Assembly: GCA_000002445.1 (NCBI GenBank)
Contig: AL929603.2
Location: 224,001 to 288,000, forward strand
Length of the DNA: 64,000 nucleotides
Direction of reading: 5' to 3'
DNA from: Trypanosoma brucei
Lineage: Eukaryota
The position numbers and the translations under genes are program-made. Shown here piece by piece: positions 40,384-58,200 of the stretch (positions are counted from its first letter, which is position 1; each line of letters opens with the position of its first letter). The notes below the pieces were generated by a model. The model made no database searches and was not told the origin of the DNA. It was given only the letters and a program-made list of their open reading frames with translations.

Positions 40384-43300
40384 CTAATGCTGCACATTCA
40401 ACAATTCAAACCACTGACGAAGAGCATCTGCAATAGCACTTGGAAGAGTCTCAAGTTCCCTCACGATGAGATAGTGTGGAAATGGAAATTCTTCCATGTA
40501 GGACCGCCGCACGACACTGCCATCCCTGAATTCCACAAGCTGCATGTCGAGCACGGAGTTTGATTTCACGCGCTGCAGCCTCGAGTCACGCTCTGCTTTC
40601 AGTCGACGCATCCTCTGGGCAGGAGTCATCCCCGCGAGTTCTTTGGCTGAAATAGGAGCGAGTGGCGCGGCCCCATTGTTATCGTTTTCACCTCCTGAAG
40701 CCTTGACATCCAGAAGGACAAAGACAACCATCTGGTGATTTTCTTCTGCACGCATGAGCAGCTTTCTCAGTTCCATACGATCTTCCGTGATTTGCCCATC
40801 ACTAATGATGAACATCATCTGCTGAAGGCGCTGAGTGCTGGAGCGAATTTGTCCATTCATACGCCTCCGTGCATCATCAAGGTAGTCCAACGTCGTTTCA
40901 AGGAGCAATTTAAGGTTTGTTGATTTCTGCGCAAAAGTGATTTCGCTAAATGCACGCGGACCGCTCTCGGCTACGAAGGGTTCATGCATCTCGTGTACAA
41001 TGCGCGTCTCTTTTCCGAAACACGCAATCCCCAGTTCACCTACTTCAAGCTGCTGAAGGGCCTCGGCGATAAGAGCAACGGCGCGACAGGACATTATTCC
41101 GGCATTATTGCATTGCATGCTCAACGAGTCATCAAGGGCAACAAGGATTTGGTAACTGCGTTTATTCGGTTTCGTGCGGCGTAGCCATATTCGATCTTTC
41201 TTAAACTGTGAAGCTATATACGGAATGATGCGTTTCATATTGAGCCGCTTACCGGTTTTGTAGTCACCTTGTAACTTGTCAGCGACCGTCGGACTAAGTA
41301 TAAGACGTAACTGCTCACAGAGTTGGTGAGAAAGGGTGTGAACTGCTGCTGTTTGCTCCTGCCAAAGTTCTCTTCCACGGCACAACTTGTCGTACTCCCC
41401 GCCGCCGGTTGAATCTGCCGTCTTGTCGTCGTCGTCGAAACTGTCCTCTTCCTCTTCATTATCATTTCTGATTTTCGACGCAACTTTAACATGTCGCCTC
41501 GCCTTTTTCTTCTCTGCATCCTCCTCGTCACCCTCTTCTTCACTACTTTCCGTGTCTACGCTGACTTCTACTGCATGTTTTCGGTGCCGCGGCGGCGTGT
41601 CCTCATCATTACCTTCGTCAAGTTCTTCAGAGGTACCACTTTCGCTGAAGGGGTCGGCGACTTCCCTCTGTTCCGGAAGGTTGTTAGTAGCCTCCGTAGG
41701 AACAACTGGTTTCTCATCCGTTGCGGCCATGCCCTCCTCCTCTCCCTCTTCATCGAACTCAAATTCGTCGACAACTTCCTTCCGGTTACTCTGTTGTTCG
41801 TTTTGTTGTTGGTTATCAGCTTCCCTATGTTTCTTGACCTCAACACGCTTGTTAAGGTTAAGCTGTTGAACACTTCGCTGGTGGCGCTCGACGGCTTCCT
41901 TTATTGCTCTGTACGGATTACGTGACGTGTTGTGTCGCTCGGCGTTATCACGGTGCTGGGTTCGTTCATCCCGATTTTGCCGCTTCCAGTTTCGGCCGGC
42001 TTCGTCCTGTTGTTCTTCCTCCCCCGGTTGTTGCTCCTCCGTGGTGCCCGCCTCTTGCTGTGCGGCACGAGGACGCTTTTTACTCTCCTTCTCTCGTTCT
42101 TCAGTCGCCTCTTCACCGGCGTGTTCATCCTGCTGACCGCCATTGTAAACATTCTCATCAGCCCAGTCGTCCTCCTTGTCTTCACAAAAATCGCCAGAAT
42201 CACATGTTCCTTCGCCCTCGTTGTCGTCCTTCCCATTGTCTTCGCCCTCTATGTCCCGTGCATTGTCTGATAAAACCGAGGAAGCCTCACCGCTCCCGTT
42301 ATGAGCCTCATCGTCGCTATCTCCAGCGTTGTCGTCGTCATCACCTTCACTTCCCTCACGCTCCCCCTCATCACTGCAGGTATTGCTCTCCCCGTCACCA
42401 TCCCCTCCGTCATGGCTATCATTTTCGCCACCTTCAAGTACATCAGCTGCAAGATCATGGTCCTCACCTTGCTGCTGCTCTTCGGCCTCACGTATTGCCG
42501 CCTCGCGGTTTTCGAAGTTTGCCGTTTCCTGATCACCCTCATTGCCATCTATGCTCTCCTCTTCGTTGGCGAGTTCGTCCTCCGGAACATCATCTGCGTT
42601 ACCTCCATCATCGCTATCCAGATCATTCCCTTCGTTCGTTTCCTTTTTCATACGTTTCCGCTCCTGTACTTCTTCGCCATCGACACTTCCCATTTCTCTC
42701 TCGCTCTCATCACCGTCATCCTCGTCCTCCTCGTCATCATCGTCGCGCCGTTCCTTTGGAGCAGCGAAATCCGTTTCCACATCAGCAGCGTTGTCCTCAC
42801 CATCACTAGACCCGTCGCCCTTATCCTGTTGTTTCTCCTCCTGCTCCTCATCATTCTTGTCCTTTGCACTCATGAGTTGGTCTTCGTTCTCGATCTGGTC
42901 TGTCACATCTTTCTCACCTTGGCCGTCGTCCATACCCGTACCATCAAGTTGATTGCCATCTCCGCTTTCGCCGTCACCGTCCCCATCCTCCTCCTCCTCC
43001 TCTTCCGACTTGCAAAAACCTTTTCGAAAAAGAATACACAGCAGTCGCGAGACTACGAGAGTTAGGTGAGACTGTGCCAATAACGCCCGAGTAGCCCCCT
43101 GAAGAAGGAGACCCACATGCTCCACGCACACGTCAAGTCGCGACAATAGTTGAGTTCGAGCTGCCGAAGATATTTTACGGTCGTGGGTTTCGTCGTGAAG
43201 CAGTGTGTGAAGCGACGAATGTGCAGTCCGAGCTTCTGCAAGCAGCTTGCCAACGGTTTCAGCGTACCTTCTGTAAACCAGGTCTGTCCCCCCACCACCT

Positions 43301-46300
43301 GTGGAGTTTTCCTCCTTCTGTTGGTGCCCTGGAGAAGATGCAAAAAAGTCAGTAAGACCATCATTCTTCGCGAACGCGCTCTCTAAGCTCTCAACCATCA
43401 CTGTGACTTTTCCTTCCCATTGCGCGCCCACCTCCGTACGGTTTCGCTTGGCAGACACTGCCCTGGTCGGCATCGATGCCGTCACAGCACAATTGATGGA
43501 CTCACCTAGTAAGTCCAGTGATTCGCATAACTTGGAGGATGCACTATCCACACAGCCAACACCCGTGCTGCAGAGCCGTGAACACACTAAACGGACACGA
43601 CCGTAGAGAGCACCATATTGCTCCATGATGGCGTCTGCAATGGGTATTTCCGCGCGCCGCTGGCCTTCAGTTGTACAACATAATTTCCACAGCTCCTCCG
43701 TCAAGCAGTACAGCTCGTCTATGGTGGAACGTGAGCCCTCTAAATCAAAGATATGCTCTTGTAACATCCAACGAACATCGTACACGAAACTCTGAAGTTG
43801 TACACACATTTCCATTGAAGCGTGCAGCTGTTCAGCACCTGTTGGCACCGCGCGGTCCTCGCATGTGCTGATAAAATCACGCAGTAGAGCAATCTGCTGG
43901 TGCACTTCGCAAAAATTACCTATCAATTCTGCTTCTTGAACGGCAACGGCGAACAGCGATTCGGCAGTACCCGCTCCGCGTTTCACTTGGGCGTCGCTGA
44001 GATCTTTGTGAGGATGCTTTTCCGCGTCGCGCATGCGCTGGAGCCAGCGTACACCACGGTAATATTCCTGCGCAGCTTCCTCAATCCGCTTGCTAGCGAC
44101 AAGGTGTTTGTGAATATTACGACAAGGAAGGAGAGCACTACTTGTAGCAAACAACTCCTCCCAACCGGAAACCTGCAGAGCGTGCGTATGCGGCACACCC
44201 TTCTCTTCCATGACGGTAAACAGCGTCTTCAAGGCGCGTAACTTTTGGTTTTGTGGAACACTGCGCGCCTGCAGAGCGTTAACACGCTCAATGATTTCGT
44301 TAGCAGCGAATTTAAGGAACTCTACACCCTCCGACATGTAACCAGGAAGTTTTCCTTCGGCAGAGTCAGCATCTTCGCCTCCCGGAGGGGCTTCACACCC
44401 CGAAACCGCAGTTTTCGCCTTGGCATTTATTCTACCCATGCGCGATCTCTTCAGACCTATATCCACAGCGCCTTGGGCACCCTGCTTCTTATTTTTCTTC
44501 CCGTTCTTTTCCTCCAGCTGCAGTGAAGCCAGGGTGAACCCCATGGCCTGGTCATCCTCACATCGTTGCTCCTCCGTCGATATGATCTGCAGCACGGGCA
44601 TCCGCAGCACGTCTTCAAGTGATGCGAGACCGCGACCCATTTTTAGATGAGATTTTTCAGCAGTGGCACGGACCGCATAATAGGTAGAGTCCTCCCAGCG
44701 CATAATGCGAGTAAATTCCTCCATATCCTCCTCGATGGGTGAAAGCGCAATCCGCAGCTTCTGCTCCACTAACTGTGAGTACTGAGTAAAGAAATCCGTC
44801 AGGTGACACGAGGCGTTTGCAAGGGGAAACGATGAGCGCCTCCCCGCAGCGGCAAGATGAAACGCAAAAGCCTTCAGCAACCGCAGGCGGGCATGGAAAT
44901 CACCACAACGGGCGCCCCACATGAAGTCCATGCAGTAGTGAAAGAACTTGGCATAACGGTCCTGTAGCTCTTCCATTGGAATTGGTTGCTGGACGCCGGT
45001 AAGATCACATAGGCTGAACCATACCTTACCAACTTTCAGTTCCCACTCTTCTCGTTTCGCCGCAAACACCTGTCCCCAGCAATGCAATTCGAGCCTCCGC
45101 CAGCGCAACACAAACGTGGACAGATGTGTCATATGATCCATTATGGACGTATCACGGGAGGCATTGCGTTCCCATTCGTAACATTCTCTCAGAAGAATTT
45201 CACACCCCGTCATAACCTTCATCAACGGTGTGGTTAACACCGGTAGTGCTGCCAAGCAAGTGGCAATGCGGGAGCAGCGACGAAGTGAAGGCGTGTCTGG
45301 ATAAGCGGCGCTTAGCTCTGTGATGGCCTGCATGAGGCTTAGTAAGGAAGGATTGAAAGCCCGGAGCTCGGATGGTGCGGGGTCCGTGAAAATATTAAAC
45401 TTGATGGCTTTTGCTTCACTGAGGGGTGTCTCACTGGAAAAGAGACACTTCGACAACAATGTTGCCCGGGCGGCGAATCCGCCGGCCATCATTTGTTCGT
45501 CCTCTGCACGCACAAGCGACCCATCCTCATAAACACCACTGCATCCCCAGCCGCGCAGCTCCTTGGAAACAACGTCAAAAACGCCTTTGAATGCCTCCAA
45601 ATGCCTGTCGCCGCAGAAAGCACCACCGTCGTTAAGCTCAAGCAGACTTTCAAAGAAGTGATAGTGCGTGTCAAGTAGCCGCTGCATGTACTTTGCACCT
45701 TGTGGCCCCGACAACATTAAGCGGGCATGACGGCCCGTCGACAACGCAGACACCTCTGGCTTCGGAGCAGGATTTAAATCAACTTCGTCATTTGTGGCAT
45801 CTTCCATCTTATCGTCCTCGGCGTCGCGGGCACGAATAAACTCCTCTTCGTAACTAGGAAAAAGTTGTTTCAACAAACCCATGTGCGCTTCATCATCGCC
45901 TTCGATAATAACAGCCTTTTCCTTGTAGAGCACTGATAACTCCTGCTCGCTACGTTCTTTGGCCTCAAGTTCCTCAACCGCACGGTACAGCTCGCGGTAT
46001 GAATCGAAAAGCTTTTCAACAAAGTCGCGCTTGATCACTCGGGCTGGAGTGCACTGAACGAGCAGCAGGCAAGAATCAAGATACGCGAGGCGTTGTTGTA
46101 ACGACTGCGACCCGGAAGAAGGCAATACCGGTGAATTAATACTGGTTGATGGAAAATGCATCATCCGCACGGCATCTGGCACGCTAAAAATCATAGACTT
46201 CCGAACTGGCCGAGTTTGCATATAGTAGCCGATGTATGCAGCCAACGTTGCCGAAAGTGCTGGTTCCGAGACGGTGAGAGTCACGTCTTCGTACCCTCCA

Positions 46301-49300
46301 TAATTATCCAACACATCGATGAACTGCTGATAAACGACTTCACTCCATGCTTTCCGCGCAGCGGCAGTTTCTGACCTTCGCTGCGCGACCACCACCTCCA
46401 GCCGACTATCGCTCAGCATGGAACTGCACGTCTGATGAAGCAAATCCACAAGTTGTGCGAATTTCGCGCCCGTCGAGTCGGGCCTCACGACGACCTTCTC
46501 TAACGCCCTTGCCAGGTGAGCTTCCTCCTCTGCTTGCAACCCCTGCAGAAGCAACCTCTGCCGACTACAACTGCCTCTCATTGATAATTCTTCTGACCAA
46601 CTAAACGCCGCATCTAAGCGCGAGAAATATACCAGCTCATTCCTTGCGACTTCTCTCTTTACTAGCCACTTGTACATGGGGTCAATTGGTGTTCTTGGAA
46701 CGAGCATTCGGCACCGCAACACCCCAACAAGAGCTATGCGACGCAGGGAATCATCCGGAGTGAAATCATTGCTGTGCACTATCATTGATAGCACCGGACG
46801 CAAGGCATCAATAAGTGGATTTCCTTGAGTTTCGGCTAGGAGAGTGCGCAGTTTGCTTAGTAATTGAACTAACATGGCAGTGGAGGGTTCTTCCGGAACT
46901 GAAAACCCATTCGTGTTCAGAGCACGATGCGGGACTTGGCACATCTCCAGTAGAGATAGAGCATCAGTCAGACAGTTTGCCTCCCATTCTTCAAATGGGT
47001 CCACCTTCGGCATAGGCAGCACACGGCAAAACTCCAACAGGTTATCAAGAGCACGCACATGGGGATTACTCTTTGAGTCGATTGCTGCGACCGACACCTC
47101 TGCGGCATAGTCAAGTGCGTCGCTAGCAAGACTTGTCCAAGACCCACAAAGAATGTGACGCCCACCGTTCAACCCGTACCGCGATAAGAAGTTAGTTGTA
47201 AGTAGGGGCACCAGTGAAGATAGAGCGGCAGCATCACGTTCCACAACAAGCGGTATGGTTGTTACCTCCCGCCACAGGGTCACATTGAGCTGTGGTACAA
47301 CGCGCAACTTCGTACAGTAAATATTAACAAACTCGAGAACCTCGCACTGCAGACGTTTCGCAACAGGCACAGAGCAGTTCGCCCTCAACTGTTGTGCCCG
47401 AAGAACCAGTGAGAATTCAGCCCGAAATATTGCACTGTCCCAGAGAGATTTCAGCAAACATTCGTGCTTTTCATGTAACGCGCTGGTAGCCGATGCCTTC
47501 CATGCAACCAGCGCCGCTCGCTCTTCCGCTGTCGTTATATGAGGGCGAACGATGCGTTTTCGAATGTTCAACCCCTCCAACACGAGCTGAAATGGAAGTC
47601 CAAGATAATTGCGCAATGACGATAAAAATTCATCTACGGCGCCAAAAAAGATGTCGGCGGTTGAGCCCAACTGCTTCTTTATCACAGAACGAATAAGTAA
47701 TACGTTCGTCAGCAGCGAAACGTAGTTGTCCACATTAATTTGATATTGAGGGAACGACGAACACACCAAACGCGCCAGTGGCCCCAGTAGCCGAAAGATC
47801 CGTTGCTGAAGAGACGGAGAAGAAAGCACCTCGACTACCTTTCCCATCGCGGAAAGCACTCGGTTAAAAGAGTTGTTGACCACCGGCGAGTCTGAGATAA
47901 AAATGTTAGCGTCACGAAGGGCTTTTAGTGACGACGCGTGTGGCCCCAACACCGGTGCGGAGGAGCACCAGATGGAATCTAGGTGGGCAGCGGCATCAGT
48001 TGTGGGCTGCAGAGATATAAGCGAAAGCACATCATTCATGCCCTGTTCAGACAGAGCATCCCCAATGGTCCAACAAAGTAATTGTCTCCGGGATTCAAAC
48101 AAAATATGGCTCAGAACACCGTCGGCACATTGATCAAGCACAAAATAAAGCACTAGATCTGATAGAGAATGACATTTTTGGTGACTTCCCTCGGCGGTTA
48201 ACTGAGCCCTTAGAGCCAACCCACTGCGAAGGACACGAATGCGTACTAGCGCTTCTTCTACGCTTTCTAGGGCCGATCCACTACCCTCACTGCTTCCAGT
48301 CACGGAAAGGGCGCTCAGAAGATCTGCTACGGAGGGAAAACACCTGCATGCATCTGACTCCCCTGCGGCCACAAGCATATCCAAATTCGTGGCCACCTCA
48401 TCCTTTCGAACATTCCAATGTCCACAACGGTTGTCAATGTATTTGTGACGAATAAACATCTTGAGGTCCTCCAGGTTGCTTGCCGCTGAAAGCATTGAAG
48501 CAGTCTTCACTAGGGTAAAAGTGTTAGGCGTACCTGAAGCTAGAGCGTCTGAAAGCTGAGTAGACATAGGCAAGGCAGAATCAGCGCTGAACAGACTGCG
48601 CAGAAACTCACGGTGGTAGCGGTTTAACATCTCAAGGTGCTCTACGCTTCGGCATGACGTACTTGCTCCGCTAATCGCGAGACTCTCCAGTGAAGGTATT
48701 TCCACTGGATGGACATAGATTTCAACCGCTCGGTTTCTCATAGCCCTCGACACCTCACCATACTTAGGATCGAGGGTCATGAAGAGACGAAAATTCGGGT
48801 GAGGTCGCACGACACGAACTTGGCCGTCAACAAGTCCCTGTTCATTCACAGAAAGCATACCGTTAGGCTCAACAAGTGGGTTGAGTCGATCCAGCACGCT
48901 GGCATTGCAGTAATTAACGTTGTCAAGAACAAGCCAATGACCACTTTGCATGGCCTCCAAAATCAACGAATCGCTCCACTCGAATTGTCCCTGTTTACCC
49001 TCCACCTGATCAAAACCGCCCAGCAGGTCAACAGTGTCACAACTGGCGTTCATAGAGAAGGTTAGCAACCGCGCTCCCGCGAGTGCCGCTGCGGCTCGAA
49101 TGCAAAATGTTTTACCGGCGCCGGTCGGGCCCGCCAATATGCAGAGTTGATTCTGCTCGGCACATGTAAGCAATGAGCGAACAACCCCCGCCTGAGAAGG
49201 GAGAAGCATCAAAGAGTTGTACGCGGTATCAATGAAAGGATTTGATCCCTGCACTCTGCGTGTCAGGAACCGAGACCCAAAGTGCACTGCATCATTTGCG

Positions 49301-52300
49301 ATGAGAAAGTGGGATTCCTGAAACGTGAGGCCACACATAGCGGAACTCCCAAATATCTTCTCAACCAACTCAACTGTTCTCTTCCGGTCAGTGTCAGTGC
49401 GCATACGTTGTGTGAAGAGCATGTCGACAAACTCACACGGCATGTCCATCACGCCGTATGCTTCCATCAACTTGGCCCAGCGTAAGATGTCACGCAAGTT
49501 GAACTCCCAAGGACTCCCGCGAACACCAAACGCACGGCGAACGACCACCTCTCGGTGGAGTTCATCTACGAAGCCCACCATCTTGCAGAGGGTTGCCTCA
49601 CCGATACCAGGAGCGACGGCAACAACAATACGCATAAGGTCTTCAACGTCAAAAGGCTCGATTCTTACCCTTGTGAACCTGTTTAGGAAGCTGCGAGGGA
49701 GACCCTTTCTCCCACCTCCTTCTGCTAGAGGGTTTTGACAAGCAAAAACACGAAAACCATCTGCAGCCTGAAACTCCTCACCCAACTCCGGAATGAAAAC
49801 CGTAGAGCGATGATCGAGAAGGGCGTTGAGGCCTTCCAGGACAGATTGACTTGCGAGATTCAGTTCGTCCAGGATCACCCACCACCCATTCTTAAGCGCA
49901 TGTAGGAGAACGCCGTCTGACCACGAAAATTGCGGACCGCCGGAGTCTCCAGAGGAGGGACATGGTAAAAACGTGCCGAAAAGATCCATTATATCGGTTT
50001 GCTCGCTCAAGTTGACACGGACAACATGTTTCCGCAGGGCACACCCCAGTGCTTCGACGATACTTGTCTTACCAACACCAGGGCTTCCTTCCAGCAGAAT
50101 TGCACGGCGCATAATGCCCGCGCGAACGAGTTTGGATAGGTTTCGACTGGTAGAGGGCGCGCCGAAGAAAAAACGCCCCTTCATCTCAGGAGGTAACGTC
50201 GGTTCCTCCAGTGTGTCGAAGAGCTCCCAGAAGGGCTCACGCAGACAATCACTGCTCACTTTACAAACTTCCCTCACTTTCGCTATGAGTGCCTCACGCA
50301 AACCGTGTGTTCCCATGTCAGATTGCCCAGTGCCCACACCGACACCGTCGAGAATGACGGCGTCAAGACCATGGACAAACGACACTTGTTCGTCACAATG
50401 ACCATCGGCAGCATTCATGAAACTAACCCAGCCAATTATGTCGCGAATGCTTATGTGCTGCGGCACCCCTGCAACTGAACATACGCTCGCTGCATCACAC
50501 AGTAGTGAGGCCATATGCGCCGCCCAGTGCGAAAGATTTTGATTCAACCGCTTGGAAAGAATAAGGGTCACCTCTTCACGCTCCACTGTTGGTCTGACAT
50601 AAATTTCAGTAAACCTGTTTCGAAGAGCGGGCGACAGCTCGCGCTTTCCAAAATCTCCACCAGGGTTCATTGTTGCAAGAATGCGAAAGTCCTCATGGGC
50701 GAAAATGACATCTGCTGTGCTCTTTTCAGCAAGGGTTACTGTTCGACCCGGTTCAAGGACACTATTCAACCTCTCAAGGACGCTATCCTCAGCAAGGGAG
50801 ATTTCGTCCAAAACAAATACCCCTCCTTTTAGCATGCATTCAACCAGCGGGCCATTTCGCCATTGAAAAATTGCGCTGCTTTGCTGATTTGGAAGAGCAG
50901 GTCGAAGGCTCCCAAGAAAGTCAGCAGCTTCACTATGCTGATGACAGTTGACAATACTAAGCCGACGTTGCAAAATTGCTGCCCAAACTTGGCAGACTGT
51001 TGTCTTGCTGCTTCCCGTCTCCCCCACCAACAACACAGGTTCTCGGTGAAAAAGACAAATACCTACCACAGTAAATAAACGCAACATGGACTCAGTCCAC
51101 ACGATACCGAATTCCTCCGCCACACGACTTTCCACATGCTTGTAGTGTTCGGCAACGTACGGCCAATGATGTGGTGAATAAATGTCACCTTCGTTGAGCT
51201 CAGTTTTTGTGATCGACTCAATAACATCCTTAACGATCTGGCGCTCCTCAGTCTTCCGGCAACGCTCTACCAACAAGAGAAACCCATGTTCTGCCATTTC
51301 CTGATATGTCCCAGGGCACCGCTCAGCCCAACGAAAAAGATCCCGCGGAGTCACGAAACCGTGACGACCTGCAAATACCCGAGAACCCTGACGTCGTATT
51401 TGAAGAGTGGTCATGACCTCCACCATTTTTTCGGCAAAACTCGGACTAAGAGAGTACCGTTGACAAAGAATGGTGCACAGCTCTGTGTTGGGTATATCAT
51501 CGACGGTGATTTCCAAAAATCGATTACGAAACGCTCTTGATAAGAGCTTGCGGCCCCCGTACACACCTGCTGGGTTCTGAGTGGCAAATATGCGCAGATG
51601 TGGATGAGGTTTTATTGTTTCTTGAGTGTCTGCGACAAAAAGTTCATGGTTATCATCAAGTAAGCGATTGAGGGCCTCCAGGACTTCAGTGGGGGCAAGA
51701 TTCAGTTCGTCTAACATAATCCAATACCCATTGCGCACGGCGTCAACTAAAATACCGTCTACAAAGCGGAGTTTACCGCGTTCATCCGAAATGTAGTGAC
51801 CCACATATTCCTGAATTTCCGTACTCTCGTGGTTATTTATTCTGATGAACTTGTGCCCCGTAAACTCGGCAAGGTACTTCACCATGGAGCTTTTCCCGGA
51901 TGATGTTGGACCCTCTAACAGTACCGGCCGATCCGCGAACACTGCTCGAGCGACGTTCAACAAGTGCCCTTTAACACTAGGTGTTAAAATAAAGGACTCA
52001 TCCTTGCGAGGCTCCTCCGATCCAACAGGTAACCAAATGTGCTCATACGCCACAAAACGTCCCCCAGAAGGGCAACGCGGCAGGGTCGGTCGCGGTGGCT
52101 CTCCATTGCCAAATACATGTTTCTTAATTAATTGTTCAACAATAGAGTGAAACTGCCGCTCCAGAGGAGTTGCAAATCCCAACATTAAACCGTCAAACAA
52201 AGCGAGGGCAAACCCATACTGCGATGTGGCTTTCCGCACATAAGTAAGAGCACGTGTCAAAGTCCTCAAACTAACTGTGGGTGGCTTCGTCCCGCCATCC

Positions 52301-54186
52301 AAAGAACATAAAGCCGATTTGGCCTTTCCAACATACTCTAGGAAAAACGAAGTCACCTCTTGAATCTTGCAATCCGTTGCCAAGTGGCCAATAAACTCAC
52401 TAACCACAATGCTAATATCACCCTGCTCAAAAGGCTCACTAACATATATCTCGGTAAATTTGGAGCGCAGCGATGGCGGAATATCCTTCTTACCGACGTC
52501 AGTAGGGGGGTTCATGTTTGCAAAAACGTGAAAATTTTTGTGCCTCTTAATTGGTTCGCTTCCAACCTTATCTGTCAGATATAACGCATCAACATCCCCT
52601 AAGACAGCCGAAACTCTTTCCAGTATCTCGGTAGACGCAAGATTCACCTCATCTAAGAGGATCCAGTAACCCTCTCTCCATGCCCTGGTCAAAGACCCTT
52701 CTTCAAAACGAAAGGCAAATGTATTCCTCGTGGTGTGAAGTGTCGCCAACAAATCCTGGGTTACATTCTCGAGATTAAGCCATCGCTCCTGGAGTTCAGT
52801 TGAGAAAGGGTGTTGAATATTCTTCAACTTAAACGAGCTGCATCCCTTAAGAATTTGTCTGACGACGACGAGCCACGAGCACTTTTTCATTGACATCTGG
52901 ACTGCGCTGAGAAATTCTGCATTTCGAGAAGCGTTAAAACATTGCGAAAAAAGATCCACAAAATCCTGATACGCGTTCCTCACAGCAACACCCACGTCGA
53001 GTGGTTTCCAACCTCCCATGAAATCACTTGTATCGGTTTGTTGGTCAAGATTGTGAACAATCAGCTTTTGACCAACCTTGTCGGCAAGATACTGAACGAC
53101 AAATGTTTTTCCAACTCCAGTTTCACCTGTCAAAAGGACATTCTCCTGTGCATCAACAGCGGCTGCTATCCGTTCCAAGAGAGACATGGAATGTTTGGTG
53201 GCTGCAAATACCGCAGTAGTTTTTAGATCGCCACTCAGGCAACCATACAGGGGCAGTGTAACTCGACCAACGGTAAAGTACTCCGCTCCCGATCGCATTT
53301 CCGGTTTGCTCTGGTAAGCAAGCGAATCGGCAACATTCGGCAAAATACCTACACATTCAGCCATAATATTGATGATGCGGATCAATTCATCACATTTTGG
53401 GAAGCCTGCCAACATACAGTCGTATGCTTCACGAAACATCATCTCACGAATTGTGGATGAAATAAATTCGTTGGAGAGGTTGGTGTTGGGAAGCCTCCTG
53501 CTCACTCGTTTGCACCACTTAAGTAACGACCGAAGGGTCACTAGTGAAGTGCCAAACAAACGAGACGGAAGGGTCGTCAGTGCAGAAACTACGCTTCTCG
53601 GAACGGAGTACAACGACGTTGCGACAACACAAATCTCCTCAGGGGGCAAACTTTTTAATACCGTAACCCCCCAAAGTTCACCAAAGGGTACGGAGTTACT
53701 CTTACGCGTCGTAAAAGTGTCACCAACAGATCGCAACTGCTGGGTGGCAATAATTCTGAAATTCGGATGGGCATTGATGCGTTTATTTTTATCCGGCAAA
53801 AATAGTGTAGACTCCTCAAGAAGAGAAAGTAAAACTGAAAAAACATCGAACGATGCTAGATCGATATCTTCCATTAGAATCCACAGACCATTTGCTACCG
53901 CAGTAGTCAGAGGACCTGGTACCCATTCGAACGCTCCGGGCACATCTGTTGCTGAGAACTTCCCAAGCAAGTCCCTGCTATCAAACGAATCGTCGACGTT
54001 TATCTGAATCATTGTACTGTACGCACCACATTCTTCCGCTAAGGCCTTAACAAAAAAACTCTTACCACACCCAACCTCACCTTGAACGAGAACAGCCCGT
54101 GATGTGTCAAGAGTTACCTTAAGGTTTCTGAGGTTCTGTTCGCTCACGGCCGTCAAGATCATTGTCTGCCAACCAAGCATGTACAT
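40384..54186 (-). CDS. MDN1: midasin (MDN1/Rea1-type AAA ATPase), 4,600 aa: six AAA protomers, a linker, a D/E-rich domain and a C-terminal MIDAS/VWA domain
   Basis: Six Walker A motifs occur in order: GEVGCGKS, GETGVGKT, GPTSSGKS, GETGSSKT, GSPGVGKT, GPTGAGKT. A very long Asp/Glu-rich segment lies at ~41.4-43.0 kb. The C-terminal VWA domain carries a MIDAS motif (ILVALDDSLSMQ). Confidence 0.95.
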   Translation of the reverse strand: MYMLGWQTMILTAVSEQNLRNLKVTLDTSRAVLVQGEVGCGKSFFVKALAEECGAYSTMIQINVDDSFDSRDLLGKFSATDVPGAFEWVPGPLTTAVANGLWILMEDIDLASFDVFSVLLSLLEESTLFLPDKNKRINAHPNFRIIATQQLRSVGDTFTTRKSNSVPFGELWGVTVLKSLPPEEICVVATSLYSVPRSVVSALTTLPSRLFGTSLVTLRSLLKWCKRVSRRLPNTNLSNEFISSTIREMMFREAYDCMLAGFPKCDELIRIINIMAECVGILPNVADSLAYQSKPEMRSGAEYFTVGRVTLPLYGCLSGDLKTTAVFAATKHSMSLLERIAAAVDAQENVLLTGETGVGKTFVVQYLADKVGQKLIVHNLDQQTDTSDFMGGWKPLDVGVAVRNAYQDFVDLFSQCFNASRNAEFLSAVQMSMKKCSWLVVVRQILKGCSSFKLKNIQHPFSTELQERWLNLENVTQDLLATLHTTRNTFAFRFEEGSLTRAWREGYWILLDEVNLASTEILERVSAVLGDVDALYLTDKVGSEPIKRHKNFHVFANMNPPTDVGKKDIPPSLRSKFTEIYVSEPFEQGDISIVVSEFIGHLATDCKIQEVTSFFLEYVGKAKSALCSLDGGTKPPTVSLRTLTRALTYVRKATSQYGFALALFDGLMLGFATPLERQFHSIVEQLIKKHVFGNGEPPRPTLPRCPSGGRFVAYEHIWLPVGSEEPRKDESFILTPSVKGHLLNVARAVFADRPVLLEGPTSSGKSSMVKYLAEFTGHKFIRINNHESTEIQEYVGHYISDERGKLRFVDGILVDAVRNGYWIMLDELNLAPTEVLEALNRLLDDNHELFVADTQETIKPHPHLRIFATQNPAGVYGGRKLLSRAFRNRFLEITVDDIPNTELCTILCQRYSLSPSFAEKMVEVMTTLQIRRQGSRVFAGRHGFVTPRDLFRWAERCPGTYQEMAEHGFLLLVERCRKTEERQIVKDVIESITKTELNEGDIYSPHHWPYVAEHYKHVESRVAEEFGIVWTESMLRLFTVVGICLFHREPVLLVGETGSSKTTVCQVWAAILQRRLSIVNCHQHSEAADFLGSLRPALPNQQSSAIFQWRNGPLVECMLKGGVFVLDEISLAEDSVLERLNSVLEPGRTVTLAEKSTADVIFAHEDFRILATMNPGGDFGKRELSPALRNRFTEIYVRPTVEREEVTLILSKRLNQNLSHWAAHMASLLCDAASVCSVAGVPQHISIRDIIGWVSFMNAADGHCDEQVSFVHGLDAVILDGVGVGTGQSDMGTHGLREALIAKVREVCKVSSDCLREPFWELFDTLEEPTLPPEMKGRFFFGAPSTSRNLSKLVRAGIMRRAILLEGSPGVGKTSIVEALGCALRKHVVRVNLSEQTDIMDLFGTFLPCPSSGDSGGPQFSWSDGVLLHALKNGWWVILDELNLASQSVLEGLNALLDHRSTVFIPELGEEFQAADGFRVFACQNPLAEGGGRKGLPRSFLNRFTRVRIEPFDVEDLMRIVVAVAPGIGEATLCKMVGFVDELHREVVVRRAFGVRGSPWEFNLRDILRWAKLMEAYGVMDMPCEFVDMLFTQRMRTDTDRKRTVELVEKIFGSSAMCGLTFQESHFLIANDAVHFGSRFLTRRVQGSNPFIDTAYNSLMLLPSQAGVVRSLLTCAEQNQLCILAGPTGAGKTFCIRAAAALAGARLLTFSMNASCDTVDLLGGFDQVEGKQGQFEWSDSLILEAMQSGHWLVLDNVNYCNASVLDRLNPLVEPNGMLSVNEQGLVDGQVRVVRPHPNFRLFMTLDPKYGEVSRAMRNRAVEIYVHPVEIPSLESLAISGASTSCRSVEHLEMLNRYHREFLRSLFSADSALPMSTQLSDALASGTPNTFTLVKTASMLSAASNLEDLKMFIRHKYIDNRCGHWNVRKDEVATNLDMLVAAGESDACRCFPSVADLLSALSVTGSSEGSGSALESVEEALVRIRVLRSGLALRAQLTAEGSHQKCHSLSDLVLYFVLDQCADGVLSHILFESRRQLLCWTIGDALSEQGMNDVLSLISLQPTTDAAAHLDSIWCSSAPVLGPHASSLKALRDANIFISDSPVVNNSFNRVLSAMGKVVEVLSSPSLQQRIFRLLGPLARLVCSSFPQYQINVDNYVSLLTNVLLIRSVIKKQLGSTADIFFGAVDEFLSSLRNYLGLPFQLVLEGLNIRKRIVRPHITTAEERAALVAWKASATSALHEKHECLLKSLWDSAIFRAEFSLVLRAQQLRANCSVPVAKRLQCEVLEFVNIYCTKLRVVPQLNVTLWREVTTIPLVVERDAAALSSLVPLLTTNFLSRYGLNGGRHILCGSWTSLASDALDYAAEVSVAAIDSKSNPHVRALDNLLEFCRVLPMPKVDPFEEWEANCLTDALSLLEMCQVPHRALNTNGFSVPEEPSTAMLVQLLSKLRTLLAETQGNPLIDALRPVLSMIVHSNDFTPDDSLRRIALVGVLRCRMLVPRTPIDPMYKWLVKREVARNELVYFSRLDAAFSWSEELSMRGSCSRQRLLLQGLQAEEEAHLARALEKVVVRPDSTGAKFAQLVDLLHQTCSSMLSDSRLEVVVAQRRSETAAARKAWSEVVYQQFIDVLDNYGGYEDVTLTVSEPALSATLAAYIGYYMQTRPVRKSMIFSVPDAVRMMHFPSTSINSPVLPSSGSQSLQQRLAYLDSCLLLVQCTPARVIKRDFVEKLFDSYRELYRAVEELEAKERSEQELSVLYKEKAVIIEGDDEAHMGLLKQLFPSYEEEFIRARDAEDDKMEDATNDEVDLNPAPKPEVSALSTGRHARLMLSGPQGAKYMQRLLDTHYHFFESLLELNDGGAFCGDRHLEAFKGVFDVVSKELRGWGCSGVYEDGSLVRAEDEQMMAGGFAARATLLSKCLFSSETPLSEAKAIKFNIFTDPAPSELRAFNPSLLSLMQAITELSAAYPDTPSLRRCSRIATCLAALPVLTTPLMKVMTGCEILLRECYEWERNASRDTSIMDHMTHLSTFVLRWRRLELHCWGQVFAAKREEWELKVGKVWFSLCDLTGVQQPIPMEELQDRYAKFFHYCMDFMWGARCGDFHARLRLLKAFAFHLAAAGRRSSFPLANASCHLTDFFTQYSQLVEQKLRIALSPIEEDMEEFTRIMRWEDSTYYAVRATAEKSHLKMGRGLASLEDVLRMPVLQIISTEEQRCEDDQAMGFTLASLQLEEKNGKKNKKQGAQGAVDIGLKRSRMGRINAKAKTAVSGCEAPPGGEDADSAEGKLPGYMSEGVEFLKFAANEIIERVNALQARSVPQNQKLRALKTLFTVMEEKGVPHTHALQVSGWEELFATSSALLPCRNIHKHLVASKRIEEAAQEYYRGVRWLQRMRDAEKHPHKDLSDAQVKRGAGTAESLFAVAVQEAELIGNFCEVHQQIALLRDFISTCEDRAVPTGAEQLHASMEMCVQLQSFVYDVRWMLQEHIFDLEGSRSTIDELYCLTEELWKLCCTTEGQRRAEIPIADAIMEQYGALYGRVRLVCSRLCSTGVGCVDSASSKLCESLDLLGESINCAVTASMPTRAVSAKRNRTEVGAQWEGKVTVMVESLESAFAKNDGLTDFFASSPGHQQKEENSTGGGGTDLVYRRYAETVGKLLAEARTAHSSLHTLLHDETHDRKISSAARTQLLSRLDVCVEHVGLLLQGATRALLAQSHLTLVVSRLLCILFRKGFCKSEEEEEEDGDGDGESGDGNQLDGTGMDDGQGEKDVTDQIENEDQLMSAKDKNDEEQEEKQQDKGDGSSDGEDNAADVETDFAAPKERRDDDDEEDEDDGDESEREMGSVDGEEVQERKRMKKETNEGNDLDSDDGGNADDVPEDELANEEESIDGNEGDQETANFENREAAIREAEEQQQGEDHDLAADVLEGGENDSHDGGDGDGESNTCSDEGEREGSEGDDDDNAGDSDDEAHNGSGEASSVLSDNARDIEGEDNGKDDNEGEGTCDSGDFCEDKEDDWADENVYNGGQQDEHAGEEATEEREKESKKRPRAAQQEAGTTEEQQPGEEEQQDEAGRNWKRQNRDERTQHRDNAERHNTSRNPYRAIKEAVERHQRSVQQLNLNKRVEVKKHREADNQQQNEQQSNRKEVVDEFEFDEEGEEEGMAATDEKPVVPTEATNNLPEQREVADPFSESGTSEELDEGNDEDTPPRHRKHAVEVSVDTESSEEEGDEEDAEKKKARRHVKVASKIRNDNEEEEDSFDDDDKTADSTGGGEYDKLCRGRELWQEQTAAVHTLSHQLCEQLRLILSPTVADKLQGDYKTGKRLNMKRIIPYIASQFKKDRIWLRRTKPNKRSYQILVALDDSLSMQCNNAGIMSCRAVALIAEALQQLEVGELGIACFGKETRIVHEMHEPFVAESGPRAFSEITFAQKSTNLKLLLETTLDYLDDARRRMNGQIRSSTQRLQQMMFIISDGQITEDRMELRKLLMRAEENHQMVVFVLLDVKASGGENDNNGAAPLAPISAKELAGMTPAQRMRRLKAERDSRLQRVKSNSVLDMQLVEFRDGSVVRRSYMEEFPFPHYLIVRELETLPSAIADALRQWFELLNVQH

Positions 54187-54430
54187 TTCAAATTAAGTGA
54201 ACGTCAAAAAGGGGTGAGAAGAGTAAGTTATGTCAGGCTCAAAATGACGAGTCTGCGTTACAAAAATCCTCCATCATTCTCAGCATTAGTTTCTTTTTTA
54301 AAAGGGGGAGGAATAGAACGGAGTTAGACAGAACATGATATTCAGAAATACTGGATCTCAGCTCCTGCATTTGGCATGTCCACACATCAAAAAAAAACAT
54401 ATACTATTGGCAACATGTGCGAAAGGGCAT

Positions 54431-55201
54431 CTACTTCCTTTCGCGTGTACGCTGCAACCGGCTACTCCTTGTTGGCCCACCTCTTTGGGAAGCAATTTGT
54501 GTTTCACCACAATTACTTCGTGCAGCAAATTTCATTATTTCCTCCAGCTTGGAACGATTTGGATAGTGTTGCTTAGTTTGGCCACTTTTCAGAAACCTTA
54601 CATAACTCGATATATTCATTTCGTATTCGAGAAAGGACGCAAGATTCATCGCTGTTGTTTTGTCATGAGTGGCAACGCGATCAAAAAACGGTAACATAAT
54701 TTCTTTTGGCGCTGTCACACCAGCTGCAAAGAAAACGGCCATCACCTTCATGGATATGCACGGGCAGCTCACAGTTTTCAACTTATCGTACAAAAATTCC
54801 TCACCAGCGAGGGGTCCGTCAGCAACGTCGATGAATACGCGAAATGGAATGTTCTCAACGCTGTGTGGTGGTTGTGATTCACATGTCTTTGCATTCATCG
54901 AATAACGGTTCCTGGTGGATGCGCTTGTCTGCTCCGTCGGCATCAGCTTTGGTAGTGAGGAAACACGCGATACTTCTGTATAACAACAACCAATAGGCCT
55001 CGTCTTGCAGAACGCTCCGTCAGGGACATCAACAGAAAAAGACAAACCATGCGCATCAAACCCTTCAAGGAAACCAATAGCGGCAACGAGCATATTAAAT
55101 AAGGCACCTTGGGGTACTTTCAAGGTCAAAAGCCCCGTAACAGCCGCGTACTTAAAACGAGCAAGAGACCTCTGGCCACAGATTGCAACTGTCCGATTCA
55201 T
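54431..55201 (-). CDS. hypothetical protein, 256 aa, first gene of the minus-strand unit (or a detached midasin N-terminal domain, see findings)
   Basis: Minus-strand ORF 245 bp upstream of the midasin start, in a different frame. No recognisable motif. Confidence 0.45.
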   Translation of the reverse strand: MNRTVAICGQRSLARFKYAAVTGLLTLKVPQGALFNMLVAAIGFLEGFDAHGLSFSVDVPDGAFCKTRPIGCCYTEVSRVSSLPKLMPTEQTSASTRNRYSMNAKTCESQPPHSVENIPFRVFIDVADGPLAGEEFLYDKLKTVSCPCISMKVMAVFFAAGVTAPKEIMLPFFDRVATHDKTTAMNLASFLEYEMNISSYVRFLKSGQTKQHYPNRSKLEEIMKFAARSNCGETQIASQRGGPTRSSRLQRTRERK

Positions 55202-58200
55202 CCAACCATCCCAAAGGCTTAAAGAACTTCAATGGGGAAAATAGGAAAAGATATACAGTAAGAAGTGAGCTTTGAATACATAAATAACAGGCCAAAATAC
55301 AGATGCAGCCCCATACCGTATAAATGGGGGGAAACAAAAGAACAACTGGTATACCCCAGCAAATACAAGACATTTGTGGTGGGAAAAGAACGCTGAAATA
55401 GGTACAACCAGGTCCGGTTGCCATTTCTACGGAAAGTCTGTATTCAGCGCATCCGCGGGGTGATCTAACAAACAATCTCACACGTACACGCACTGATGGA
55501 TCGGTAGATAGTGTAGACTTCCACTCCAAAATAGTAAAATGAATTTAATTTTCATCGTCATAAAGAAACACTAAACATATCACTCAAAATAACAACAATT
55601 TTCATGCTTCAGCGCGGCTCGTGGTTACAAGACGCCGTGCACCGGTCAGATCTAGGTGGCATCATTTCATTACGCAATTACCATTCATACAAACTACGAG
55701 GCAAAAGAAGCGAAAGAAAACAAACTTTCCACTAGCAGCTATCACGGTAGTAACGTAACGCATTGATCTCCCTCTTGCTTTATTTAAAAAAAAAACAGAA
55801 ACGCTGAGGACTTCTACGGGAATCTAACGTCCGGTAAAACGTCTCTACGACACTGTCATTTCTGTCACTCCAATGATCACTAGCACACGCCTATGCTTTT
55901 TCGCGGCGAGTTCAACAATTTATCCGCACTTGATACGACAAAAAAACAGATGGGGGTAGATGCACCGGGAGATTTACGCTCCTCAATGACACTTACGAAA
56001 GCAGAAACAAGCAAAAATGTGATATTTACACTAGAAAAAAGTTCATTCGGGATGGTGGTCTGCTTTTCGAAGTAGCTATAACCGGCAAAAGCAGCAATAA
56101 AGAGCTGAAAAGACTGATGGGGCCCGTCAACCGGTGACATCAGTAAGGAATATTATTACCCCCCGCCTCTTCTCTCCCCCTCGAGCGGTCCAAACTTTCG
56201 CATTAACACGAGGTAACACCATATGTAACGACTCGAATAACATTTGCTCCTTTCTCGCACTGACCAGCAGATCATACAAAAAACGTTAAAACGGCGAACC
56301 ACGTACATATATCGCACCAACTTCTCAACACAGCAGTTGCAATCCCACTTCACATACAGAAACAAAGAGAAAGTGTACAACCTACGCGACGTCAGAAGAT
56401 CCGATAGCGACCCTCGGCATGGTCCACACACTACCTGCGGTCACACATGCCAATAAAAAAACCCGCTGAGTATTTATTATCACTAAAGGGGGAATGCAGA
56501 TCACAGCGTAAAAATACGTTAGTAGTGGGGAAAGCCCGGGAACATATACAGTTACCGATGTTCAGCAAAGGGCGCGGGAAGCTGTCCTCCTTTGATTCGT
56601 CTAGTTTCGAGCCATTTAACGAGAAAAGCAATCTCCAGAGGCAGCACCAAACACTCTCAAGGGCACCGAAACCAGGAACACATCTCCCAGAAACAATACA
56701 CAAACCTTTAAGACAGACCCCCTAGAGAAACGCCCACAGTGCAACACCACACCATGGAACCGGGTAGAACAACCTTAAGTCCGCTTCCGCACCCCCATTC
56801 AGCTGTCACGTGCTGGTGGTCGATCCAAAGCTCTCCTTGGATCATCCTGCTGGCTCACCCACCGTAGTCGTACAGGTTCCTGTTCTCTTCCGATGGAGGT
56901 GCCACAAAAATATGGCTTCCACGGACACAAAAGACGCTATTTCAGTCTACACAGCTAAGAAATCAGGTATTATCTAAACTGCAGTCAACTAGATCACACC
57001 TCGGCGGAGCAGGAGGACCAACGAACCCGTCTTCTTGGTTGGGGTATTTCTCAACGATGGCGGATGCCAGCCTCTCCACGACTCCTCACCCTTTCTTTCT
57101 CTTTCCTAAAAGTGCTGGAGGTAACTTCAGTTCCATCTCGCCACTGAGCACCTTCCTCCTCGAGCTTACCGATCCGTGTTTCTCCCTCAGAATCTAGAAC
57201 CCGTCGGGCTCGAGTGGTACCAAACCGTACCTACCACCCAACATTTTAATTCGCGGCGGGCACTCCTCTCATCTCACTCCCCATCCCCCCATGGCCGCAG
57301 GCATCGGACATGCACCTCGTGGAGGAAATCTCACCAACGCAAGCCACATCGCAGCCCCTGCACTGCCGGACTCCGACGCCGGCTTCCGCTCCTTGACCCC
57401 AACATCGAGCAGCCGCCACGGAACGCGACTGGCCCCAAAGTACACTGGCATCGTCTGCAGCGCGAATAGGTTCGAGCTCCCGCTAAGTTTATCAAACTCG
57501 ACACACTCCACCGAGCCATGTACGGTAGCCGGCTTCAACTGCACCCCAGTTCCTGCAACCCTCCCCCCTCCATCCATGAGCCTTCTCACCCATAGCACCT
57601 CGTTCCTGTTCGGTTGAACTACCCTCCGTGGACAAGGCACCCCATGCCACCGCCAATAATTCTTTCAACGGCACTATGGGATCAAGCGCAGGCTTAAAGC
57701 TGCTGCACATCGCCATCGTCCTTGCCAAGAGCGCCCTCTTACACGCCAGGTTGTTAAACTTCCCACCGACGACCCATTTAACTTCATTGTCATTCCACCG
57801 CCCTGCTTTCGGGCTAGTTGTTGCCCGTAATCACACAATGCAAACTACGATCGCGCTATAGTCACCCTTTAGCGCCACCACTACCGCAGCATTGCTGTCG
57901 CCAAGACACCGGTGAACCTCTATTTTCGTTGCAATCGCTGTGATTCATCTTGGTTCTGCCCCTTCCACACGAAGTCGGGTACACGCATATCCTTTGTAAC
58001 CCTTCTCCGCCCCCAAAAATTTCGCCGAGAACCGTGCTTATGTTCCTCGTAGTGTTGGTGTTCCCTTTTTATGACGAATAGGAGGACACCGGCACCACGG
58101 TAAATATATTTGTTTTTTCTTCGCACCCGATGCTACTCGGCTTCCGCTGAATTTGGTACACATGCCGGCTGAAGTTGACGCCTGTATTTATTTGTCGTTG

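What the first reader, a model, noticed from the sequence alone, without database searches (positions are those of the whole stretch)
54187..55201. Midasin ORF starts about 36 residues before its first Walker A; candidate missing N-terminal domain lies just upstream
Fungal and animal midasins have a ~35-kDa N-terminal domain before AAA1. Here the 4,600-aa ORF starts MYMLGWQ… and reaches GEVGCGKS by residue ~40. A 256-aa (~28 kDa) minus-strand ORF lies 245 bp upstream in another frame. There are three possible readings. (i) This lineage's midasin genuinely lacks the N-domain. (ii) The 256-aa ORF is the N-domain, split off by a frameshift, an assembly error or a real gene split. (iii) It is an unrelated gene. 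Readings (i) and (ii) would both be notable for ribosome-biogenesis mechanics.
Basis: inference. Interest (0 to 1): 0.5.

Follow-up and report, generated by a model that had tools for sequence, protein, structure and literature searches.

The report
Trypanosome midasin genuinely lacks N-domain
The giant ribosome-assembly motor midasin of Trypanosoma brucei starts directly at its first ATPase module, with no N-terminal domain, and the small gene just upstream is a separate, independently processed trypanosome-specific gene rather than a broken-off piece of midasin.

Summary
The window is T. brucei chromosome 1. The midasin gene is Tb927.1.880 and the 256-aa ORF is Tb927.1.890.

Published transcript mapping (Kolev 2010) settles the gene structure.
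- Tb927.1.890 has its own spliced-leader site at window 55226 (108 reads).
- It has poly(A) sites at 54293-54343.
- Midasin's spliced-leader site is at 54165 (138 of 140 reads), inside the ORF.
- Translation therefore starts at the ninth codon, 54162 (MILTAVSEQ). Other Trypanosoma midasin models also begin at this methionine.

Only 27 residues precede the first Walker A, so there is no N-domain at all. The frameshift and assembly-error reading is refuted.

The 256-aa protein is conserved and syntenic across eight or more Trypanosoma species. It shows no sequence or fold similarity to midasin N-domains, though these tests have low power.

An extra finding is that the Trypanosoma ring also lacks the AAA6 and AAA4 helix-2 alpha inserts. 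The AAA6 insert is the element that the N-domain contacts in yeast Rea1. This points to a streamlined ring-linker junction rather than a missing piece.

The start-codon correction is already known. The minimal ring is a modest new variant.

The parts
40384..54162 (-). Midasin (Tb927.1.880, MDN1) coding sequence as actually translated: 4,592 aa, 512.6 kDa, starting MILTAVSEQ.
   Evidence: ORF. The mapped spliced-leader site at 54165 makes 54162 the first AUG. The mass of 512,598 Da equals the 512.6 kDa listed for Q4GZD0. The same MILT start appears in other Trypanosoma models. Matches to Rea1/Mdn1 structures have E = 3e-187.
54163..54186 (-). Eight-codon ORF extension (MYMLGWQT) that is not part of the major mRNA's coding region. 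It contains the splice-acceptor AG at 54166-54167.
   Evidence: Kolev 2010 Table S1 lists Tb927.1.880 among ORFs with a misannotated start. Table S4 places the SAS at chr 278165, which is window 54165, with 138 reads. The sequence was checked.
54206..54227 (-). Polypyrimidine tract (CTTACTCTTCTCACCCCTTTTT) about 40 nt upstream of the midasin spliced-leader acceptor AG.
   Evidence: Read directly from the sequence. Equivalent pyrimidine tracts followed by an AG a few nt before ATGATTTTGACG occur in T. cruzi and T. conorhini.
54293..54343 (-). Cluster of polyadenylation sites of the upstream gene Tb927.1.890, giving a 3'UTR of 88-138 nt.
   Evidence: Kolev 2010 Table S5 lists chr 278293, 278300, 278315 and 278343 (8 reads in total). 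The offset is 224000.
54431..55201 (-). Tb927.1.890: a 256-aa, 28.4-kDa, basic (pI 9.4) conserved hypothetical protein, specific to Trypanosoma as far as could be detected. It is the first gene of the minus-strand transcription unit.
   Evidence: ORF. Orthologues at 19-33% identity occur in T. congolense, T. vivax, T. cruzi, T. grayi, T. theileri, T. conorhini and one unnamed run. It has no Pfam domain. Kolev Table S14 names it as the first ORF of its unit.
55217..55269 (-). Spliced-leader addition sites of Tb927.1.890. The major site is 55226 (108 reads, 25-nt 5'UTR). Minor sites are 55217 and 55269. A pyrimidine tract lies just upstream.
   Evidence: Kolev 2010 Tables S4 and S12. AG dinucleotides were verified at 55227-55228, 55218-55219 and 55270-55271.
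54058..54081 (-). AAA1 Walker A motif GEVGCGKS, at residues 28-35 of the real protein. Only one helix and one strand of AAA1 precede it.
   Evidence: Alignment to Rea1, Mdn1, NorQ and CbbQ places strand beta-1 at about ORF residue 31.
48973..49029 (-). AAA6 helix-2 region reduced to a short hairpin (DLLGGFDQVEGKQGQFEWS). The ~90-aa AAA6L-H2alpha insert of yeast midasins is absent.
   Evidence: Rea1 has 92 residues and S. pombe Mdn1 88 residues where T. brucei has 3. The identical string occurs in T. cruzi and T. conorhini. In Rea1 this insert is the contact of the N-domain.
50863..50922 (-). AAA4 helix-2 region, also short (DFLGSLRPALPNQQSSAIFQ). The AAA4L-H2alpha insert is absent.
   Evidence: Rea1 residues 1365-1421 (6i27 numbering) have no counterpart in T. 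brucei.

Best explanation
Two independent genes sit head to tail in a T. brucei polycistronic unit. Tb927.1.890 is the first gene of the unit. It is trans-spliced at 55226 and polyadenylated at 54293-54343. It encodes a fast-evolving, largely helical and disordered, basic 28-kDa protein of unknown role.

The next pyrimidine tract (54206-54227) directs spliced-leader addition at the AG at 54166-54167. The midasin mRNA therefore starts at 54165 and is translated from 54162. The resulting 4,592-aa midasin begins with helix alpha-0 of AAA1. It has no N-terminal domain.

This is a genuine, conserved feature of Trypanosoma and not a sequence defect. It comes together with loss, or never-gain, of the AAA6 helix-2 alpha insert, which the N-domain contacts in yeast, and of the AAA4 insert. 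The inference is that the ring-linker junction is built more simply in this lineage, from AAA1L, AAA6L and the linker stem alone.

Shown: the transcript ends, the start codon, conservation of the start, synteny, absence of the domain and absence of the inserts. Inferred: that the junction works without any substitute, and that Tb927.1.890 is functionally unrelated to midasin.
For: Transcript mapping:
- The window equals Tb927_01_v4 coordinates minus 224000.
- SAS and PAS data and the misannotated-start list come from Kolev 2010.
- The AG and pyrimidine-tract context was verified in the sequence.
- The 512.6-kDa mass of the M9-start protein matches the database entry.

Conservation of the start and of the layout:
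- T. congolense, T. conorhini and T. cruzi midasin models start MI(L/P)TP; T. rangeli has the same internal MILT.
- An AG lies 1-3 nt before the ATG in T. cruzi and T. conorhini.
- Orthologues of the 256-aa ORF sit immediately upstream, as separate ORFs, in T. cruzi and T. conorhini.
- The family is found in 8 or more Trypanosoma species.

Absence of the domain and the inserts:
- T. brucei residue 11 aligns to Rea1 residue 290 and Mdn1 residue 132.
- AAA6 and AAA4 H2alpha inserts are absent, while the AAA2 insert is present.
- The AAA6 feature is identical in T. cruzi and T. conorhini.
- In Rea1 the NTD contacts AAA6L-H2alpha and the linker stem.

No link between the 256-aa ORF and N-domains:
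- No Pfam domain.
- No PDB profile hit.
- hhalign against three N-domains gives probability 0.4%.
- Foldseek finds no hit at E <= 0.001 and no midasin among the matches listed.

Localisation and proteomics:
- Midasin is nuclear-enriched and localises to nucleolus periphery points.
- Tb927.1.890 does not appear in the held parts of those tables.

Against: The layout is exactly what a gene fission would leave behind: a ~28-kDa helical protein immediately upstream on the same strand.

In Rea1 the N-domain fills the place of the missing AAA6 small domain next to AAA1L. No AAA lid domain was found after T. brucei AAA6. What occupies that site in trypanosomes is therefore unexplained.

The proteomic absences rest on supplementary files that were truncated when stored. 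No kinetoplastid outside Trypanosoma could be examined.
Confidence: 0.85

Rival explanations
1. Gene fission. Tb927.1.890 is the former midasin N-domain. It is now made as a separate polypeptide that binds the ring-linker junction in trans, and it has diverged beyond recognition.
For: It lies immediately upstream on the same strand, and this position is conserved in T. brucei, T. cruzi and T. conorhini. Its size (256 aa) is in the range of N-domains, which span 130-345 aa. It is predicted to be helical, and the Rea1 NTD is alpha-helical. N-domains are so divergent that lack of similarity is not decisive. The AAA6S-equivalent site has no identified occupant.
Against: hhalign gives probability 0.4% over 8 columns. 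There is no PDB profile hit and no Foldseek hit to midasin chains. About 85 central residues are variable and predicted to be disordered, and the protein ends in a basic tail, unlike the environmental N-domains aligned. The yeast contact partner AAA6L-H2alpha is absent. The protein is not seen in the held nuclear or nucleolar lists where midasin is prominent. Gene order is generally conserved among trypanosomatids (my background knowledge, not tested here), so adjacency carries little weight.
Confidence: 0.05
2. A single midasin gene has been artificially broken by a frameshift, an indel or an assembly error between 54187 and 54430.
For: The gap is short (244 bp) and the two ORFs differ in frame. 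Draft assemblies of T. cruzi and T. conorhini do fragment midasin elsewhere.
Against: Separate poly(A) and spliced-leader sites are mapped experimentally between the two coding regions. The same two-ORF layout, with a pyrimidine-rich spacer of about 240-250 bp, occurs in independently sequenced species. The 256-aa protein is identical in length in T. b. brucei, T. b. gambiense and T. equiperdum. The spacer contains stops in the midasin frame.
Confidence: 0.01
3. The N-domain's scaffold role is taken over by some other, unlinked trypanosome protein or by a lineage-specific elaboration of the linker stem. Tb927.1.890 is irrelevant.
For: In Rea1 the NTD replaces the missing AAA6 small domain and braces AAA6L against the linker stem. 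No lid domain follows T. brucei AAA6. The linker regions have no Pfam models with which to judge them.
Against: There is no positive evidence. The parallel absence of the AAA4 and AAA6 inserts suggests general simplification rather than substitution.
Confidence: 0.09

Closest known systems
Rea1 (S. cerevisiae) / Mdn1 (S. pombe) midasin, PDB 6HYP, 6I26, 6OR5, 5JCS
   Same: Six concatenated AAA_5 modules with midasin lid domains. The AAA2 helix-2 alpha insert is present. There is a long linker, a D/E-rich region (aa ~3700-4300) and a C-terminal MIDAS domain (E = 2e-68). The protein shows nuclear and nucleolar-periphery localisation.
   Different: There is no N-terminal domain: 27 residues precede the Walker A, against ~315 in Rea1 and ~155 in Mdn1. 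There are no AAA4L-H2alpha or AAA6L-H2alpha inserts. The AAA4 P-loop reads GETGSSKT rather than GETGCGKT.
Rea1 N-terminal domain (alpha-helical scaffold at the ring-linker junction)
   Same: Tb927.1.890 is of similar size, is predicted to be partly helical, and is encoded directly 5' of AAA1 on the same strand.
   Different: It is a separate mRNA and polypeptide. No sequence, profile or fold similarity was detected. It has a long disordered centre and a basic C-terminal tail. It has been found only in Trypanosoma.
Trypanosomatid ORFs with misannotated start codons (Kolev et al. 2010, Table S1)
   Same: Tb927.1.880 is listed there. The spliced-leader acceptor lies inside the originally annotated ORF, so translation starts at a downstream AUG.
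   Different: Nothing differs. This part of the finding is already published, and the 512.6-kDa mass listed for UniProt Q4GZD0 matches the corrected start.

Membership tests
Midasin / Rea1 / Mdn1 | Six tandem dynein-related AAA (AAA_5) modules in one polypeptide, with midasin-type lid domains | tested here: met
   PF07728 scores E = 1.6e-63, and PF17867 and PF17865 are present. P-loops lie at aa 28, 346, 751, 1047, 1359 and 1678. The match to Rea1 and Mdn1 chains has E = 3e-187.
Midasin / Rea1 / Mdn1 | C-terminal MIDAS (VWA-like) domain preceded by a D/E-rich region | tested here: met
   The last 350 aa match the Mdn1, Rea1 and Chaetomium MIDAS domains, with E = 2e-68 to 3e-57, although there is no Pfam hit. 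The D+E fraction is 0.24-0.43 over aa 3700-4300.
Midasin / Rea1 / Mdn1 | N-terminal alpha-helical domain preceding AAA1 | tested here: not met
   The mapped mRNA 5' end at 54165 and the first AUG at 54162 leave 27 residues before the Walker A. T. brucei residue 11 aligns to Rea1 290 and Mdn1 132. Annotated models for T. congolense, T. conorhini and T. cruzi begin at the same methionine; T. rangeli has it internally. This feature varies in length between yeasts, so it is not strictly defining.
Midasin / Rea1 / Mdn1 | Helix-2 alpha-helical inserts in AAA2, AAA4 and AAA6 | tested here: not met
   The AAA2 insert is present, at ~87 aa. The AAA4 insert is absent. The AAA6 insert is absent.
Midasin / Rea1 / Mdn1 | Nuclear or nucleolar localisation and a role in pre-60S maturation | not testable with these tools
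   From the literature only. TrypTag reports 'nucleolus periphery points'. Midasin is enriched in the nuclear proteome. Function was not tested.
Midasin N-terminal domain (as the identity of Tb927.1.890) | Sequence or profile similarity to N-domains of bona fide midasins | tested here: not met
   hhalign of A3 against A5 gives probability 0.4%. The profile against PDB finds nothing. Power is low, because A5 does not detect the yeast NTDs either.
Midasin N-terminal domain (as the identity of Tb927.1.890) | Fold similarity to the Rea1/Mdn1 NTD | tested here: inconclusive
   [not shown]
Midasin N-terminal domain (as the identity of Tb927.1.890) | Covalent continuity with AAA1, or physical association with midasin | tested here: not met
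   Continuity is not met: the two have separate mRNAs. Physical association is not testable here. Tb927.1.890 is absent from the held parts of the nuclear and nucleolar tables.

The most novel reading that the evidence does not exclude
Tb927.1.890 is a detached, rapidly evolving descendant or functional replacement of the midasin N-domain. It docks in trans at the AAA1/AAA6/linker-stem junction of an otherwise minimal trypanosome midasin. If so, the ring-linker scaffold would be a separable, and potentially regulatable and parasite-specific, subunit.
Probability: 0.05. Interest if true: 0.65.

Novelty: new variant of a known kind. Interest (0 to 1): 0.3.

Why it matters
In yeast Rea1 the N-domain is described as the scaffold that holds AAA6L and the linker stem together and fills the slot of the missing AAA6 small domain. 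Here an essential-pathway midasin lacks that domain, lacks its AAA6 contact insert, and lacks the AAA4 insert implicated in MIDAS docking. If it works normally, none of these elements is mechanistically indispensable. Trypanosoma would then offer a natural minimal midasin for structural work.

The finding also marks differences from the host enzyme in a parasite. The practical points are already in the literature or the databases: the start codon is codon 9, and the upstream ORF is its own gene.

Tried and rejected
- A word-indexed protein search with the 256-aa ORF and with its family profile found only T. brucei and one unnamed run.
- An exhaustive HMMER search found only Trypanosoma orthologues.
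- A metagenome scan with the family profile found nothing.
- Pfam gave only a sub-threshold DUF6572 hit.
- The profile against PDB gave only a de novo helical barrel at E = 6.
- I built an N-domain alignment from three environmental midasins for profile-profile comparison, with a negative result. The same profile cannot find the yeast NTDs, so I treat this negative as weak.
- Chen et al. 2018 (Mdn1 structure) is not held.
- The Nilsson 2010 and Siegel 2010 supplements gave nothing.
- Rfam and tandem-repeat scans of 54-64 kb found nothing, and there are no tRNAs.
- A Pfam search for a lid domain after AAA6 was negative.

Full report
**Identity of the window.** The 256-aa ORF is 99-100% identical to hypothetical proteins of T. 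b. gambiense, T. equiperdum and T. b. brucei TREU927 chromosome 1 (CAJ16010.1, UniProt Q4GZC9). The T. brucei midasin is Tb927.1.880, UniProt Q4GZD0. GeneDB v4 places it at chr1 264384-278186 (-). That is exactly the window ORF 40384..54186 plus 224000. The window is therefore Tb927_01_v4 224001-288000, and the 256-aa ORF is Tb927.1.890.

**The observation.** All elements are present as described.
- A 4,600-aa minus-strand ORF spans 40384..54186 and starts MYMLGWQ.
- GEVGCGKS lies at ORF residues 36-43.
- A 256-aa ATG ORF lies at 54431..55201.
- The spacer is 244 bp and the ORFs are in different frames.
- An in-frame TAA lies 9 nt before the first ATG.

**Gene structure, from published transcript mapping.** The source is Kolev et al. 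2010 (PMC2936537), supplementary tables read.
- Tb927.1.890 has splice-acceptor sites at chr 279226 (108 reads, 25-nt 5'UTR), 279217 (4 reads) and 279269 (1 read). These are window 55226, 55217 and 55269.
- Its poly(A) sites are at chr 278293, 278300, 278315 and 278343, which are window 54293-54343. The 3'UTR is 88-138 nt.
- Tb927.1.880 has its major splice-acceptor site at chr 278165 (138 reads), which is window 54165. Single reads map at 278060 and 272533. No site lies upstream of the annotated ATG.
[quoted passage not shown] I also verified that a pyrimidine tract (54206-54227) lies about 40 nt upstream of the midasin acceptor. The mRNA therefore starts ACA-AUG, and the first AUG is 54162 (MILTAVSEQ...). 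The protein from this AUG is 4,592 aa and 512,598 Da. This equals the 512.6 kDa recorded for Q4GZD0 in a proteomics table, so that mass matches the M9 start rather than the ORF's first ATG.

**Conservation of the start and of the two-gene layout.** Midasin gene models of T. congolense, T. conorhini and T. cruzi begin MI(L/P)TP(T/A)SE. T. rangeli has the same methionine internally. In T. cruzi (L001) and T. conorhini (L002) a pyrimidine tract and an AG lie 1-3 nt before ATGATTTTGACG. In both species a same-strand ORF orthologous to Tb927.1.890 lies roughly 240-250 bp upstream.

An exhaustive HMMER search finds the family in T. congolense, T. vivax, T. cruzi, T. grayi, T. theileri and one unnamed sequencing run, at 19-33% identity. 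Conserved blocks are:
- an N-terminal CGQQSLSRLKY...SAVGFLEGYD block;
- a helical block, EE.AY..L...V..LLLASG..P.....L.DRLA;
- a C-terminal R.SRLQ..R motif.

The frameshift or assembly-error version of reading (ii) is therefore refuted. These are two real genes with separate mature mRNAs.

**Does the midasin lack the N-domain?** Yes. ORF residue 11 aligns to residue 290 of full-length S. cerevisiae Rea1 and to residue 132 of S. pombe Mdn1. Strand beta-1 and the P-loop follow at the spacing seen in the MoxR-type AAA proteins NorQ and CbbQ. With the real start, 27 residues precede the Walker A, enough only for helix alpha-0 and strand beta-1 of AAA1.

By contrast, three intron-free environmental midasins (L003, L005, L019) carry 265-345 residues before the Walker A. 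The rest of the protein is a bona fide midasin:
- six AAA modules with midasin lid domains;
- a D/E-rich region;
- a MIDAS domain;
- nuclear enrichment and 'nucleolus periphery points' localisation in the literature.

**An additional observation that bears on the mechanism.** In the Rea1 cryo-EM structure the NTD takes the place of the absent AAA6 small domain. [quoted passage not shown] 2018; review).
- T. brucei AAA6 has only GGFDQVEGKQGQFEW where Rea1 has 92 extra residues and Mdn1 88.
- The same 21-aa string occurs in T. cruzi and T. conorhini.
- AAA4 likewise lacks the ~57 residues of Rea1 1365-1421.
- The AAA2 insert is retained.

The Trypanosoma ring therefore lacks the NTD together with its yeast contact partner. 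This fits a simplified junction better than a missing piece supplied elsewhere. No lid domain follows AAA6, so what abuts AAA1L remains unknown.

**Is Tb927.1.890 the N-domain in trans?** I found nothing in favour beyond position, size and helicity.
- Pfam: no domain.
- Family profile against PDB: nothing.
- hhalign against an alignment of three genuine N-domains: probability 0.4% over 8 columns.
- AlphaFold with the 7-sequence alignment: mean pLDDT 49. Only residues ~132-205 are confident helices, and residues 47-130 are disordered.
- Foldseek against all PDB chains: no hit at E <= 0.001 and no midasin among the matches listed.
- Tb927.1.890 does not appear in the held portions of the TrypTag organelle lists, the nuclear proteome or the mitochondrial importome, whereas midasin appears in all three. 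These files were truncated when stored, so this is weak evidence.

One caveat is important. N-domains are so divergent that one environmental NTD, and the three-sequence NTD profile, fail to detect the yeast NTDs. Negative sequence tests therefore cannot exclude an ancient fission. I put that reading at about 5%.

**Context.** Tb927.1.890 is the first ORF of a minus-strand Pol II unit running to Tb927.1.530. A divergent strand-switch region follows (Kolev Table S14). Consistent with this, 55.2-64 kb contains no ORF longer than 186 aa, and GC skew changes sign near 60-62 kb.

**Verdict.** Reading (i) is correct and stronger than stated. Reading (ii) is refuted as an artefact and unsupported as a fission. 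Reading (iii) is most likely.

The start-codon correction and the two-mRNA structure are already in the literature. I found no publication describing the complete absence of the NTD together with the AAA4 and AAA6 inserts, so this is a modest new variant of a known machine.

Noticed in passing
window 48973-49029 (-) and 50863-50922 (-): T. brucei midasin lacks the helix-2 alpha-helical inserts of AAA6 (~90 aa in yeasts) and AAA4 (~57 aa in Rea1), but keeps the AAA2 insert. The AAA6 string is identical in T. cruzi (L001 nt 13115) and T. conorhini (L002 nt 6868). In Rea1 the AAA6 insert is the contact of the NTD, and the AAA4 insert contributes to MIDAS docking.
   Followed up: yes
window 51001-51024 (-): The AAA4 P-loop reads GETGSSKT, with serine instead of the glycine before the lysine (Rea1 has GETGCGKT). 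AAA4 is one of the catalytically functional sites in Rea1. Whether the T. brucei site binds ATP was not examined.
   Followed up: no
window 55202-64000: About 9 kb has no ORF longer than 186 aa, no tRNA, no Rfam hit and no tandem repeat. GC skew flips sign near 60-62 kb. This is the divergent strand-switch region between Tb927.1.890 and Tb927.1.990. Kolev 2010 maps a novel plus-strand transcript, Tb1.NT.20, with splice sites at window 63496 and 63528.
   Followed up: partly
Orthologues P0008, P0009, P0010 (T. grayi, T. theileri, T. cruzi): Orthologues of Tb927.1.890 are named 'maoC-like dehydratase' or 'peptidyl-prolyl cis-trans isomerase' in GenBank and UniProt. The T. brucei member matches no Pfam family and the sequences align full-length with it. 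These names look like annotation-transfer errors.
   Followed up: partly
L001 8001-17050 and L002 1751-11583: In the T. cruzi (PRFC01000169.1) and T. conorhini (MKKU01000060.1) draft assemblies the midasin gene is broken into several consecutive ORFs (349, 982, 249, 166 aa and so on). These are presumably frameshift errors. The break points are downstream of AAA1, not at the N-terminus.
   Followed up: no
L083 1-2269 (ENA metagenome contig; protein P0006): An environmental midasin-like gene, 37% identical to T. brucei over 557 aa, also begins about 45 residues before its first Walker A (after a poly-Asn run). It has 556 bp of AT-rich, pyrimidine-tract-rich, ORF-free sequence upstream. It may be a second N-domain-less midasin from an unidentified eukaryote, although an upstream intron cannot be excluded.
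   Followed up: partly
[not shown]
   Followed up: partly
window 41200-44250 (+): A cluster of plus-strand ORFs of 100-300 aa, with strongly negative GC skew, overlaps the D/E-rich region of midasin. These are most likely mechanical by-products of the repetitive acidic codons on the opposite strand.
   Followed up: no
window 38552-39604 (-): The ORF immediately downstream of midasin sits where Tb927.1.870 would fall by locus numbering. Tb927.1.870 is the catalytically dead deoxyhypusine synthase paralogue described by Nguyen et al. 2013. The assignment rests on position and locus numbering only; the ORF itself was not compared.
   Followed up: no
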